Shown here in pieces: positions 40,704-42,720 of a DNA stretch of 43,630 nucleotides. Below the pieces are notes generated by a model, which was given only the letters and a program-made list of their open reading frames with translations, was not told the origin of the DNA and ran no database searches. Position 1 is the stretch's first letter, and each line of letters opens with the position of its first letter. The stretch comes from Shigella phage Buco. The stretch lies in the sequence record MK562503. One strand, given 5' to 3'. Both the position numbers and the translations under genes were made by a program.

Positions 40704-42230
40704 ATGGCGGCAGTATCTTCCCTGACGAAGTTAATCAGGCAGCGGGCCCAGAATGTCACTTACAATAGCACGAACGTGCAGGCACAGTTAGATTCCCTAC
40801 CCATCTGGTCTCTTGCAGACCCCCGCTGGGGAGCAGATGCAACCGGGGCTACTGACAGCACTGCGCGTATTCAGGCATGCTTCAACTACGTAGGTAGCCG
40901 CGGTGGCGGTACAGTGTATATCCCAGCTACCCCAGGCGACGGAGCAGCCGCAAACAACCAGGGTTACAAGGTCAGCGGCAGTATTGAGGTTCCTGCCTTT
41001 GTTAATATCCAGGGTGAGGGATTCAGCTCCTGCCTCCGGGCAAGCACAACTCTCCCAGGTGGACTGTTACGGTTGAAGGCGCATGGCAGTGTAGGGGGAC
41101 GCTTCATCCGGGACATTCGCCTCTCTGGTAACAACGGCGGAACTGGTATTGGCACCGACCTAGAGGCCACTGATACTGAGACTAAGCACATCTACGGATG
41201 GATGCTGGAGGACGTATTTATTGAGAGCTTCGAGTGGGGCTTGCAGTTGCAGGGTATGTGGCACTCTACGCTGTTGAACGTTACAACCAGCGCCTGCCGT
41301 GTAGGCCTGCACTTGTGGGGGCAGAACGTCTCTATCAACATTCTGGGCTCGCACTTCCGCCGGGACAGCCGGGACCGTAAGGACACCTTTGGTATTGTGA
41401 TTCAGCCGCGTGTATACGCCTGGAGCCCGGACCAGACCAGGGGCTCTCGTAGTGAGACTATTGTGATGGGCGGTGAGTTCATGTGCATTGGGCAGGAGTA
41501 CGGTATCTATGTACATGACGTGCTGGACCTCCAGATTAGTAATATGGACCTGGACTACATCTTCTTGATCGCCATCGCGATTCTGAACGTAAACGGGGGC
41601 TGCAATATCTCCGACGGGTGGATAGCCGCAGACAGCACCGGCACTACTCAATTCTCTGGAATAGTGTTCGCGAATCCGCTGGATGTACAGCAGATGAAGA
41701 CCGTACGCGGACTGCACATGAACCTCGCTAACAATAACCCGTTAGCTAATAACCAGGGAGTTGCTATAGCCAGTCAGAAGGTAGGCAAGGTGGCTATCAG
41801 GGATTGTACCTTCTCCGGTGGCTGGGCAGGTGTCGACATTTACCAGAATACTGCGGGTGTAATCATTGATGGCAATATCTTTGCCGGTAACACCCTGTCC
41901 CTGCGTAGTAGCGGCATGGTGACCATTACTAACAACCGGCTGGACAATGTAACGGAAACCGGTAAGGCTGCTGTGAATACTTACATGGGCAATAACAATG
42001 GCAAGTTCACGGATGGGATTGTGCAGGTATCTATGCCAGCAAGCGCCAACTCCGGCTCCTTGCAGCTGCCTAATCCGGTGGCTGGCGCTACCTACGTAGC
42101 TGAGCTAATGGGAAACAACAGCGCGCAGACTTCTGACTTTGCCTGGGTGGAGGGGTCTGTTGTAAGAGTTAGTCGGGCGACTCCGGTTGCGGTGGTTCTA
42201 AATGCTTATGTACGCGTAACTATGCTGTAA
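40704..42230 (+). CDS. Tailspike with pectate-lyase-like beta-helix (probable polysaccharide depolymerase)
   Basis: 508 aa; N-terminal DPRWGADATGATDSTARIQACFNYV...GGTVYIPA is the hallmark of the pectate-lyase-3 fold; no T7 gp17-like anchor; aggag upstream. Confidence 0.8.
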   Translation: MAAVSSLTKLIRQRAQNVTYNSTNVQAQLDSLPIWSLADPRWGADATGATDSTARIQACFNYVGSRGGGTVYIPATPGDGAAANNQGYKVSGSIEVPAFVNIQGEGFSSCLRASTTLPGGLLRLKAHGSVGGRFIRDIRLSGNNGGTGIGTDLEATDTETKHIYGWMLEDVFIESFEWGLQLQGMWHSTLLNVTTSACRVGLHLWGQNVSINILGSHFRRDSRDRKDTFGIVIQPRVYAWSPDQTRGSRSETIVMGGEFMCIGQEYGIYVHDVLDLQISNMDLDYIFLIAIAILNVNGGCNISDGWIAADSTGTTQFSGIVFANPLDVQQMKTVRGLHMNLANNNPLANNQGVAIASQKVGKVAIRDCTFSGGWAGVDIYQNTAGVIIDGNIFAGNTLSLRSSGMVTITNNRLDNVTETGKAAVNTYMGNNNGKFTDGIVQVSMPASANSGSLQLPNPVAGATYVAELMGNNSAQTSDFAWVEGSVVRVSRATPVAVVLNAYVRVTML

Positions 42231-42241
42231 CTATGCTGTAG
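42220..42241 (+). repeat. Tandem 11-mer duplication spanning the tailspike stop codon
   Basis: ctatgctgtaa (42220..42230) followed by ctatgctgtag (42231..42241); the stop codon is the last triplet of the first unit. Confidence 0.7.
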
Positions 42242-42720
42242 CTGGTGCTATAGCGGGTGCTGTACCGGAAGGGCCGGGGTTATCCCGGCTTAGCCCCGGC
42301 TTGGCACCTGGCTGGTCAACTGGCTGGGCAACTGGCCGTGCGCGTCTAAGCCTGAACCCAAAATTTATTATATTCACGAGAGGCAGTCCCTCACCCTCAG
42401 CGCCGCCCATTGCCCCCATAGGGGCCTCCCGGGGTGGAAAAGGGTGGCCGGGGCCGCCTGTGGCCGCTCTGGGCTGCTGGAGCTGGCCTCCCGGGGTGGC
42501 ACTGGGGTAGCATGGGCTGACCATGCCTATAACGCGTTGTATCGCGTTATGCGGCGTTGTACCGGGGCAGGCATAGGGTAGCACCGGGCTGTCCCTGCTG
42601 TGGCTCTGTGGTGGCTCTGGGGCGCTCTGTGTGGTGCTGGGTGGCTATGGGTGGCTATGGGTGAGCCTGCTGGCTCCCTCTGGCTCACGGTGGCTATGGC
42701 TGGCTACGCTGAGCGACACG
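42242..42720. repeat. GC-rich non-coding island of short imperfect direct repeats
   Basis: Repeated units such as ctggctggtcaactgg/ctgggcaactgg, gcctcccggggtgg (twice), gtggctctg (twice), ggtggctatgg (three times); ORFs here translate to Pro/Gly/Ala-rich nonsense. Confidence 0.5.

What the first reader, a model, noticed from the sequence alone, without database searches (positions are those of the whole stretch)
42220..42720. Tandem duplication creating the tailspike stop, followed by a GC-rich repeat island
The tailspike stop codon lies inside the first unit of a tandem 11-mer, and the next roughly 480 bp are non-coding, noticeably more GC-rich than the genome, and built from short imperfect direct repeats. 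This could be a recombination scar from tailspike exchange, a decayed remnant of a former gene, or a packaging-related repeat array of the kind seen next to T7 terminal repeats.
Basis: seen in the sequence. Interest (0 to 1): 0.45.

Follow-up and report, generated by a model that had tools for sequence, protein, structure and literature searches.

The report
Phage genome end: collapsed terminal repeat
The GC-rich, repeat-laden stretch after the tailspike gene is the place where this KP34/phiKDA1-like phage's linear DNA begins and ends (its roughly 330-bp direct terminal repeat, collapsed to one copy by assembly), a known feature of this phage group and not a gene remnant or a new element.

Summary
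A perfect 11-mer tandem (42216-42240) overlaps the tailspike stop. The next ~490 bp have no supported gene. The stretch is the most GC-rich in the genome (67.8% vs 54.1%) and is built of short repeats phased at about 10 bp. The headline does not hold: without the duplication the gene would stop at the same codon (TAG instead of TAA), and the protein ends level with its closest homologue's last residue.

The island is the genome terminus. Window 42339-42428 is a block conserved in 36 relatives. Position 42388|42389 aligns with the left ends of fHe-Kpn01 (experimentally determined), KP34, phiKDA1, AttikonH4 and Cronobacter phage Peggy. A second conserved motif, which in relatives follows the terminal repeat, sits at 42720. 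This predicts a repeat of 42389 to ~42717 (~329 bp; family range 213-339). GC-richness and helical phasing recur in 20 related loci.

The window is a permuted assembly with a 127-bp end overlap, which I read as an artefact, so the true repeat appears once. No Rfam match, no protein family, no frame-specific conservation and no fold signal were found.

Likely role, inferred only: terminase recognition and cutting at the concatemer junction. This is a new member of a known kind, of low interest.

The parts
40704..42230 (+). Tailspike gene (508 aa), Sf6/SFN6B-type. It is the last late gene before the genome's right end.
   Evidence: ORF list. PHROG 28781 tail spike, E=2.7e-148. 48% identity to the SFN6B tailspike, aligned through the last residue of both proteins. 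No similarity to the tailspike of the closest relative Peggy.
42216..42240 (+). Perfect tandem 11-mer GTAACTATGCT x2.3, overlapping the stop codon TAA at 42228-42230. It is probably a replication-slippage duplication and is silent for the protein.
   Evidence: TRF score 50 with 100% matches. The identity run of 14 at period 11 exceeds all shuffles. Translation with and without the second copy gives the same C-terminus...AYVRVTML*.
42231..42338 (.). Variable right-end spacer made of three small repeat pairs or arrays: GGTGCTRTASCGG x2 (42244-42268), CCCGGCTTRGC x2 (42284-42305) and a 12-mer GGCTGGGCAACT x3.2 (42298-42336). It must contain the 3' boundary of the tailspike cassette.
   Evidence: Sequence is not conserved with Peggy, phiKDA1 or fHe-Kpn01, although each carries its own short repeats here. 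RNA fold is not significant (z=-1.0).
42339..42388 (+). Conserved pre-terminus block (GTGCGCGTCTAAGCCTGAACCCAAAATTTATTATATTCACGAGAGGCAGTC), the last 50 bp of unique sequence before the right-hand terminal repeat. Candidate terminase recognition sequence (inferred).
   Evidence: Most positions are 60-99% conserved in an ungapped, terminus-anchored comparison of 36 distinct family sequences. It aligns with the last bases of the Peggy record and with the bases just before the annotated right repeats of phiKDA1 and fHe-Kpn01.
42389..42717 (+). Predicted direct terminal repeat (~329 bp; right end uncertain by about 3 bp). It is present once in this assembly but expected at both ends of virion DNA. 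67.8% GC, G-rich on the plus strand.
   Evidence: CCTCACCCT... at 42389 is unique in the window. It equals base 1 of fHe-Kpn01, AttikonH4, phiKDA1 and Peggy, and base 2 of KP34, all with annotated repeats of 216-297 bp. The fHe-Kpn01 ends were determined experimentally (PMC7291057). The right boundary is inferred from the motif at 42720. GC figure.
42389..42428 (+). Conserved terminal 40 nt of the repeat, including the small palindrome CCCCC-ATA-GGGG (42413-42424).
   Evidence: 28-32 of the first 36 nt are identical to Peggy, phiKDA1, fHe-Kpn01 and KP34. Column conservation is 60-99%.
42600..42716 (+). 10-nt-phased array of GGTGGCT(A/C)TGG-type words in the right part of the repeat, including a perfect GGCTATGGGT x2.6 at 42638-42663.
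   Evidence: TRF period 10, 6.3 copies. Family D1/D3. Lag-10 z=13-19. Identity run of 16 at period 10.
42718..42732 (+). Right-boundary motif ACGTTGCCTCTTTTG (family consensus CTTRCYTMTTTTG). In relatives it starts 1-3 nt after the last base of the terminal repeat.
   Evidence: Single match in the window. It follows the annotated repeat ends in KP34, fHe-Kpn01, AttikonH4, phiKDA1 and Peggy. It lies 215-341 nt after the terminus in 22 of 24 family loci with enough sequence and is more than 90% conserved.
42736..42780 (+). Conserved post-repeat element TTTCATTCGAAAG...GAAATGAAG, followed by TTACACGGTATAGGAGAG. The latter is a candidate phage-RNA-polymerase promoter, in a position analogous to T7 phiOL. 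It lies outside the finding but belongs to the same terminal architecture.
   Evidence: Aligned with fHe-Kpn01, KP34 and SFN6B. A second copy with 2 mismatches sits at 21379, in the gap between the RNA polymerase gene and the first late gene; 3 matches against 0.06 expected. Support from Peggy is only partial.

Best explanation
The island is the terminal region of a linear, T7-type phage genome. The window is a circularly permuted assembly of a Slopekvirinae phage (KP34/phiKDA1 group, closest to Cronobacter phage Peggy).

In virions the DNA most likely starts at window 42389 (CCTCACCCTCAGCG...). It most likely ends at about 42717, after one full genome length. The segment 42389 to ~42717 would then be a direct terminal repeat of about 329 bp, present at both ends and collapsed to one copy by assembly.

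The 158 bp between the tailspike stop and 42389 form the unique right-end spacer. Its last 50 bp, together with the first 40 bp of the repeat, make the most conserved non-coding block of the family.

Inferred mechanism, by analogy with T7 and not shown here: replication gives head-to-tail concatemers with one repeat per junction. Terminase (small and large subunits at about 36.6-38.9 kb) recognises the conserved block. It makes the left-end cut at 42388|42389 and the right-end cut just before the CTTGCCT-TTTTG motif, and the repeat is duplicated during maturation.

The GC-rich, 10-11-bp-phased short repeats inside and beside the repeat are a family-wide property whose words differ between clades. 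They most plausibly present sites on one face of the helix for a packaging or end-binding protein. Alternatively they are simply a product of slippage in unconstrained DNA.

The 11-mer duplication at the tailspike stop is an unrelated, protein-neutral slippage event.
For: Family placement: the large terminase is 84% identical to Peggy, 82% to phiKDA1 and 76% to KP34. The RNA polymerase gene lies mid-genome.

Terminus homology: window 42380-42407 reads gaggcagtc|cctcaccctcagcgccgcc. The Peggy record ends ...gaggccgtc and starts cctcaccctcaacgccgcc. The same start is seen in fHe-Kpn01 (repeat 1-222), AttikonH4 (1-297), phiKDA1 (1-267 and 43538-43804) and KP34 (1-216).

The fHe-Kpn01 termini were determined by PhageTerm, restriction digests and ligation plus Sanger sequencing, and are blunt (PMC7291057).

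The terminus motif is unique in the window, with 0 expected by chance. The conserved block spans -50 to +40 in 36 distinct relatives.

The right-boundary motif is at 42720. In relatives it lies 215-341 nt from the terminus, directly after annotated repeat ends.

In 20 family loci the repeat is 62-68% GC against 50-56% for its flanks. Word phasing peaks at lags 10-11 and 22-24.

The position is right: between the last late gene and the early-promoter region, which is homologous to Peggy 900-960.

No RNA family, no protein family, no frame-specific conservation and no fold signal.
Against: No reads or virion DNA are available, so neither the ends nor the two-copy state is shown for this phage.

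The right boundary rests on one 13-nt motif with one mismatch. Such a match occurs by chance somewhere in the genome in 29 of 100 shuffles; only its position makes it convincing.

The predicted 329 bp is near the top of the family range.

The interior of the repeat is only weakly alignable to relatives: 51-64% identity against 48-57% for shuffles.

The window carries its own 127-bp terminal overlap, which software could read as the terminal repeat.

The roles proposed for the conserved block and the phased repeats are inferred from T7 biology. They have not been demonstrated for any Slopekvirinae phage that I could find.
Confidence: 0.85

Rival explanations
1. The physical ends are where the window ends. 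The 127-bp identity between 1-127 and 43504-43630 would be the real terminal repeat, and the GC-rich island only an internal relic of an ancestral terminus.
For: Exact 127-bp overlap of the window ends. Completeness tools routinely read such overlaps as terminal repeats.
Against: 127 is the largest k-mer usually used by the SPAdes assembler, and circular contigs carry exactly that overlap (my own knowledge).

The overlapped sequence is homologous to the early-promoter region, which in Peggy lies at about 900-960, some 630 bp inside the genome from its repeat. In fHe-Kpn01 the homologous region lies at about 830-900.

The terminus block at 42339-42428 is as well conserved as in phages with proven ends. 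A disused relic would not be expected to stay that conserved.

Terminal repeats of this phage type are known to be lost or collapsed in short-read assemblies (PMC10438801, abstract).
Confidence: 0.06
2. The stretch, or at least 42231-42338 together with the 11-mer, is a recombination scar left when the tailspike cassette was exchanged.
For: The tailspike is unrelated to that of the closest relative. It is instead related to spikes of Shigella phages SFN6B, Sf6 and Moonfish. Similarity to relatives resumes only at about 42327-42339, so a crossover must lie in this spacer.
Against: This explains at most the first ~110 bp, not the GC-rich island. The spacer shows no similarity to the sequence after the SFN6B tailspike. 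Relatives with other spikes carry comparable short repeats at the same place. The 11-mer is a perfect, hence recent, local duplication with no effect on the protein.
Confidence: 0.15
3. The island is a decayed or unrecognised protein-coding gene. The candidates are the 117-aa minus-strand ORF 42231-42584 and the 69-aa plus-strand ORF 42301-42510.
For: Open frames exist. Other annotators have called small hypothetical genes inside the homologous repeat, for example in AttikonH4.
Against: No Pfam or PHROG match. Translated matches to 40 or more relatives occur in four frames at once and only across the terminus block. High GC content inflates the number of chance ORFs. All credible genes of the phage lie on the plus strand. 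The region is largely built of 10-12-nt repeats.
Confidence: 0.03
4. The island encodes a structured non-coding RNA or a transcription terminator cluster for the late operon.
For: A GC-rich hairpin (GCCGGG-GTTAT-CCCGGC, 42273-42289) follows the tailspike stop.
Against: No Rfam match even at E<=1. Folding energies are not different from shuffles (z=-1.0 and -1.5). The terminator scan found nothing in 42231-42720. The hairpin lacks a T-run and is not conserved in relatives.
Confidence: 0.04

Closest known systems
Direct terminal repeats of Slopekvirinae phages: Klebsiella phages KP34 and fHe-Kpn01, Enterobacter phage phiKDA1, Cronobacter phage Peggy
   Same: The first ~40 nt are the same (CCTCACCCT.A.CG...CCCCCATAGGGG). 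The preceding 50-bp block is conserved. The same CTTRCYTMTTTTG motif follows the repeat. The position is the same, between the tailspike and the early promoters. GC-richness and short phased repeats are shared.
   Different: The predicted length of ~329 bp exceeds the 216-297 bp of the annotated relatives. The interior sequence is largely different, and the repeated word is GGTGGCT(A/C)TGG or GCTCTG rather than the CTAGTG/TAGGG words of the Klebsiella clade. About 230 bp of post-repeat array found in Klebsiella phages is missing, so the conserved TTTCATTCGAAAG element follows almost directly. In this record the repeat is unannotated, internal and single-copy.
Bacteriophage T7 concatemer junction: the 160-bp terminal repetition with flanking short-repeat arrays (SRL/SRR), and phage promoters phiOL/phiOR near the ends. 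From my own knowledge of Dunn & Studier 1983 and Chung & Hinkle 1990; partly echoed in PMC3276506.
   Same: The overall layout matches: last late gene, spacer with short repeats, terminal repeat, phage-promoter-like site, host-type early promoters, early genes. The terminase family is the same, as is the inferred need to duplicate the repeat during concatemer maturation.
   Different: No sequence similarity to T7 was tested or found. Here the phased repeats lie inside the repeat as well as beside it. The repeat is twice as long and strongly GC-rich. None of the T7 processing steps has been shown for this group.
Small-terminase binding arrays at packaging sites of other phages, such as lambda cosB R-sites and SPP1 pacL/pacR boxes (my own knowledge)
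   Same: Several short, similarly oriented sequence words are spaced by whole helical turns next to the cleavage site.
   Different: These are different packaging strategies (cos and headful). No binding data exist here, and the resemblance is only architectural.

Membership tests
Slopekvirinae / T7-type direct terminal repeat region | Sequence homologous to an experimentally determined genome end of a related phage | tested here: met
   Window 42389 onward matches base 1 onward of fHe-Kpn01 at 32 of 36 positions. The ends of fHe-Kpn01 were mapped experimentally (PMC7291057). The motif is unique in the window.
Slopekvirinae / T7-type direct terminal repeat region | The same segment is present at both ends of the packaged linear DNA | not testable with these tools
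   This needs sequencing reads (coverage doubling, read-start pile-ups) or virion DNA. The assembly shows the segment only once.
Slopekvirinae / T7-type direct terminal repeat region | Lies between the last late gene and the early promoter / early gene region | tested here: met
   The tailspike ends at 42230. The early-promoter-like region homologous to Peggy 900-960 lies at 43580-43630 and 1-130. The first early ORFs begin from about 850.
Slopekvirinae / T7-type direct terminal repeat region | Family-specific right-boundary motif at a family-typical distance from the left end | tested here: met
   GTTGCCTCTTTTG sits at 42720, 331 nt after the terminus. The family range is 215-341 nt. The motif alone is weak, being found by chance in 29 of 100 shuffles.
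Slopekvirinae / T7-type direct terminal repeat region | Terminase of the type that packages unit-length genomes with short exact terminal repeats | tested here: met
   The large terminase (37014-38891) is 76-84% identical to those of KP34, phiKDA1, Peggy and other phages with annotated terminal repeats.
T7-type flanking short-repeat arrays (SRL/SRR) | Arrays of short direct repeats immediately adjacent to the terminal repeat on both sides | tested here: inconclusive
   Arrays exist before the repeat (42244-42336) and within its right part (42600-42716). Directly after the predicted repeat end the window has conserved unique sequence, not an array. The comparison with T7 is from memory and was not aligned.
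Protein-coding gene or pseudogene | Family match, or conservation restricted to one reading frame | tested here: not met
   No Pfam or PHROG hits for five ORFs of the non-coding stretch after the tailspike stop. tblastn hits fall in frames +0, +1, -1 and -2 over the same 90 bp.
Described structured RNA (Rfam) | Covariance-model match or a significant fold | tested here: not met
   No match at E<=1 for 41800-43630. Fold z-scores are -1.0 and -1.5.

The most novel reading that the evidence does not exclude
The helically phased short words are not slippage debris. They fill the terminal repeat and its flanks, and they differ between clades: GGTGGCT(A/C)TGG and GCTCTG here and in Peggy and phiKDA1, CTAGTG and TAGGG in the Klebsiella clade. 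The boundary motifs meanwhile stay fixed. On this reading the words form a co-evolving binding array for a phage protein, such as the small terminase or an end-protecting or ejection-related protein. The array would wrap the concatemer junction and set the two cleavage positions. Clade-specific words would then act as a packaging-specificity code limiting cross-packaging between co-infecting relatives.
Probability: 0.2. Interest if true: 0.45.

Novelty: new member of a known kind. Interest (0 to 1): 0.15.

Why it matters
The main value is in annotation and quality control.

- The record should be re-opened at 42389. A second copy of about 329 bp should be added at the right end, giving a virion genome of about 43,832 bp (43,630 - 127 + 329).
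- The 127-bp end overlap should not be taken as the terminal repeat.
- The small ORFs in 42231-42720 should not be called as genes.

This is also a clean example of how a phage's true terminal repeat can hide inside a 'circular' contig. A conserved boundary signature locates it without reads in this phage group: ...TTATTATAYTCAC-N8-TC|CCTCACCCT on the left and CTTRCYTMTTTTG on the right.

Biologically, the strict conservation of both boundaries contrasts with the rapid turnover of the phased repeats between them. That pattern gives a concrete target for studying terminase recognition in KP34-like phages, which are widely used against Klebsiella. The feature itself, however, is expected for this family.

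Tried and rejected
- A near-identity search of 42100-43630 against GenBank phages found nothing. Only the distant mode found relatives. The closest phage overall is Peggy, at about 77% nucleotide identity, so no record of the same phage with annotated ends exists in that collection.
- An exact-pattern scan of IMG/VR with a stringent junction pattern returned only the window itself, IMGVR_UViG_2974508359_000001. A looser pattern gave 37 loci.
- Chi-site decoy idea: the repeats contain GGTGG and GCTGG, so I tested for resemblance to E. coli Chi (GCTGGTGG). Only 2 one-mismatch matches fall in the island, so the idea was rejected.
- Structured RNA or terminator: no Rfam hit, no significant fold and no terminator call inside the island.
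- Hidden gene: no family hits and multi-frame 'conservation' only.
- I tested whether the pre-terminus block resembles a repeated phage promoter. It has a single copy in the genome, so there is no support.
- The post-repeat TTACACGGTATAG motif does recur after the RNA polymerase gene. Confirmation in Peggy was only partial, so it is reported as a lead only.
- Literature searches for described functions of repeats in KP34-like termini, or for T7 junction details, found little in the held library. The T7 comparisons therefore rest partly on my own knowledge.
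Full report
WHAT THE WINDOW IS

The 43,630-bp window is a complete genome of a T7-supergroup podophage of the KP34/phiKDA1 group (Slopekvirinae).
- All large ORFs are on the plus strand, and an 832-aa RNA polymerase gene lies mid-genome.
- The large terminase (37014-38891) is 84% identical to that of Cronobacter phage Peggy, about 82% to Enterobacter phage phiKDA1 and 76% to Klebsiella phage KP34.
- At nucleotide level the closest GenBank phage, Peggy, is only about 77% identical.
- The window equals IMG/VR contig IMGVR_UViG_2974508359_000001.
- Its first 127 bases repeat exactly at its end.

CHECKING THE OBSERVATION

- GTAACTATGCT occurs 2.3 times in perfect tandem at 42216-42240. 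Its 14-nt identity run at period 11 exceeds anything in 30 shuffled genomes, whose maximum was 12.
- The tailspike ORF (40704-42230) stops at TAA 42228-42230, inside this tandem.
- The finding interval is 64% GC and 42389-42717 is 67.8%, against 54.1% for the genome. It is the most GC-rich 328-bp stretch of the genome.
- The short repeats are far beyond chance. The 4-mer autocorrelation has z=13 at lag 10 and z of 4-6 at lags 11, 12, 20 and 39. TGGCT occurs 11 times against about 1 expected. Several 10-12-nt arrays are listed.

THE 11-MER DOES NOT 'CREATE' THE STOP

With one copy removed, the sequence reads ...GTA ACT ATG CTG TAG. With both copies it reads ...GTA ACT ATG CTG TAA. The protein ends ...AYVRVTML in both cases.

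The protein aligns to the last residue of its best homologue, the tailspike of Shigella phage SFN6B (48% identity over 473 residues, query 508 to subject 598). The duplication is therefore a real but protein-neutral local event, most simply replication slippage.

WHAT THE ISLAND IS

A distant DNA search found 239 related phage records. In three of them the match began at base 1 of the record. Reading those records gave the answer.
- fHe-Kpn01 starts CCTCACCCTGAACGACGCCTATTGCCCCCATAGGGGG, with an annotated 222-bp left repeat and the same repeat at its right end.
- AttikonH4 has a 297-bp repeat and phiKDA1 a 267-bp repeat at both ends.
- KP34 has a 216-bp repeat and its record starts one base earlier.
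- Peggy has a 271-bp repeat.
- All five begin with the sequence that the window carries at 42389: CCTCACCCTCAGCGCCGCCCATTGCCCCCATAGGGG.

The Peggy record ends ...ACCCAAAATTTATTATATTCACGCGAGGCCGTC. The window reads ...ACCCAAAATTTATTATATTCACGAGAGGCAGTC immediately before 42389. The junction 42388|42389 is thus the exact homologue of record-end|record-start in the closest relative.

The fHe-Kpn01 ends were determined with PhageTerm, restriction digests and ligation plus Sanger sequencing, and are blunt (PMC7291057). The terminus motif occurs once in the window and never in shuffles.

THE OTHER BOUNDARY

In all five annotated relatives the last base of the repeat is followed, after 1-3 nt, by CTT(A/G)C(C/T)T(A/C)TTTTG.
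- The window has one such site, GTTGCCTCTTTTG at 42720.
- In 37 related IMG/VR loci fetched with the terminus pattern, the motif lies 215-341 nt after the terminus in 22 of the 24 loci with enough downstream sequence.
- Several isolate contigs simply end 192-282 nt after the terminus, as records with a right-hand repeat do.
- The window's value of 331 nt predicts a repeat of 42389 to about 42717, roughly 329 bp. This is long for the family but inside its range.
- The motif alone is weak evidence, since a chance match somewhere in the genome occurs in 29 of 100 shuffles. Its position is what counts.

FAMILY-WIDE PROPERTIES

An ungapped, terminus-anchored comparison of 36 distinct sequences shows a conserved block from about -50 to +40, which is window 42339-42428. 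The sequence around the right-boundary motif is also conserved.

Between the boundaries, sequence turns over quickly. The window's repeat is 51-64% identical to relatives' repeats, against 48-57% for shuffles. The character is nevertheless kept:
- In 20 loci the repeat is 62-68% GC while flanks and whole loci are 50-56%.
- Repeated words are phased at 10-11 and 22-24 nt.
- The words differ by clade. GGTGGC, TGGCT and GCTCTG occur here, GCTCTG also in Peggy and phiKDA1, and CTAGTG and TAGGG in Klebsiella phages.

WHY IT SITS IN THE MIDDLE OF A CONTIG

The window's own 127-bp overlap lies in sequence homologous to the early-promoter region. In Peggy that region is about 630 bp inside the genome from its repeat, and fHe-Kpn01 has it at about 830-900.

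A 127-bp overlap is what a circularised SPAdes contig carries (my own knowledge). Short-read assemblies are known to collapse or drop these repeats (PMC10438801, abstract).

I conclude that the window is a permuted assembly with the true repeat present once. The virion genome would be about 43,832 bp, in line with its relatives at 43.3-44.9 kb.

ALTERNATIVES TESTED

- Gene or gene remnant: five mechanical ORFs of the non-coding stretch after the tailspike stop have no Pfam or PHROG match. Translated similarity to the related loci appears in four frames at once and only over 42339-42426, the signature of conserved DNA rather than protein.
- Structured RNA or terminator: no Rfam hit at E<=1, fold z-scores of -1.0 and -1.5, and no terminator call inside the island.
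- Chi-like decoys: not enriched.
- Recombination scar: the tailspike is certainly a swapped cassette. It is unrelated to Peggy's (E=0.24) and related to the SFN6B, Sf6 and Moonfish spikes. The conserved pre-terminus block is the obvious downstream homology arm, so a crossover must lie in 42231-42338. This concerns only the first ~110 bp. The spacer does not resemble the sequence after the SFN6B spike, and nothing links the 11-mer to the exchange.

HOW IT MOST LIKELY WORKS

Shown here: homology of both boundaries to mapped or annotated genome ends, the position, the composition and the phasing.

Inferred from T7 biology (my own knowledge; PMC3276506, mentions polymerase pausing at the concatemer junction and interaction with the terminase proteins):
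- Concatemers carry one repeat per junction.
- Terminase recognises the conserved block and cuts at 42388|42389 and near 42717.
- The repeat is duplicated during maturation.

The phased words could be a protein-binding array on one helical face, or neutral slippage products. I could not discriminate between these.

A conserved element TTTCATTCGAAAG..GAAATGAAG follows the repeat. After it comes TTACACGGTATAGGAGAG, which recurs with 2 mismatches at 21379 between the RNA polymerase gene and the late genes (3 matches against 0.06 expected). This suggests a phage-polymerase promoter just inside the left end, as with T7 phiOL. Support from Peggy is only partial.

VERDICT

The region is the collapsed direct terminal repeat and right-end spacer of a KP34/phiKDA1-like phage. 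It is a new member of a known kind, useful for correcting the record's ends and annotation, and of low discovery interest. Confidence is 0.85 that the terminus and repeat lie here, and about 0.6 for the exact 329-bp extent.

Noticed in passing
window 1-127 and 43504-43630: The window's two ends are identical over exactly 127 bp. The overlap lies in the early-promoter region (homologous to Peggy ~900-960), not at the family's conserved terminus. It is most likely a circular-assembly k-mer overlap that could be mistaken for the terminal repeat.
   Followed up: partly
window 43167-43496 (+), flanks 43131-43150 and 43498-43521: A 109-aa ORF with a GIY-YIG nuclease domain (Pfam E=9.4e-5, 23.1 bits against a cut-off of 22.6) sits in the non-coding leader between the terminal repeat and the early promoters. 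It is bracketed by paired CCCGGG-N5-CCCGGG repeats. Peggy has such repeats but no gene there, and AttikonH4 has an HNH endonuclease at the comparable spot. This suggests a homing-endonuclease insertion site.
   Followed up: partly
window 42763-42780 and 21379-21396 (also 6011-6028): TTACACGGTATAG(G/T)AG(A/G)G occurs just after the predicted terminal repeat and again between the RNA polymerase gene and the first late gene (3 matches against 0.06 expected). It is a candidate phage-RNA-polymerase promoter. Peggy has a matching copy after its repeat (L005 472-489), but only loosely similar sequences after its polymerase gene.
   Followed up: partly
window 42736-42762; similar word at 43038-43058: The element CTTTCATTCGAAAG..TATTTGAAATGAAG is conserved with Klebsiella phages fHe-Kpn01 and KP34 and Shigella phage SFN6B, at a fixed place upstream of the promoter-like motif. 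A related TTTCATTTGAAAG occurs about 300 bp further on. Its function is unknown.
   Followed up: no
window 43497-43536 (= 1-33 region): A 13-bp-stem hairpin (AGGTTAGCCCGGGATATCCCGGGTTGACTT) is followed by ATCTGTTTTC. The ATCTGTT word is the T7 class II pause/termination signal found at the T7 concatemer junction (my own knowledge). Here it follows the GIY-YIG ORF and may be coincidental.
   Followed up: no
window 40704-42230: The tailspike is of the Sf6/SFN6B (Shigella flexneri O-antigen endorhamnosidase) type and is unrelated to the spike of the closest relative, Cronobacter phage Peggy. This hints that the host is a Shigella/Escherichia-like bacterium and shows whole-cassette exchange. It is also about 90 aa shorter at the N-terminus than the SFN6B spike.
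   Followed up: partly
L005 (Peggy) 24-44; L009 (SFN6B) 1-13 and 243-254; L002 (AttikonH4) 55-65: Several relatives have long G or C homopolymer runs (11-20 nt) near the start of the terminal repeat. The window and others instead have the CCCCC-ATA-GGGGG palindrome or a short G run at these positions. This is either real length variation or a sequencing or assembly problem at genome ends.
   Followed up: no
IMG/VR loci L013, L014, L021, L023, L026, L027, L029, L031, L036, L041, L042 (offsets ~760-890 from the terminus): Many Klebsiella-clade relatives carry a second copy of the right-boundary motif CTTRCYTMTTTTG about 550-600 bp beyond the first, near the early promoters. The window has only one copy.
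   Followed up: no
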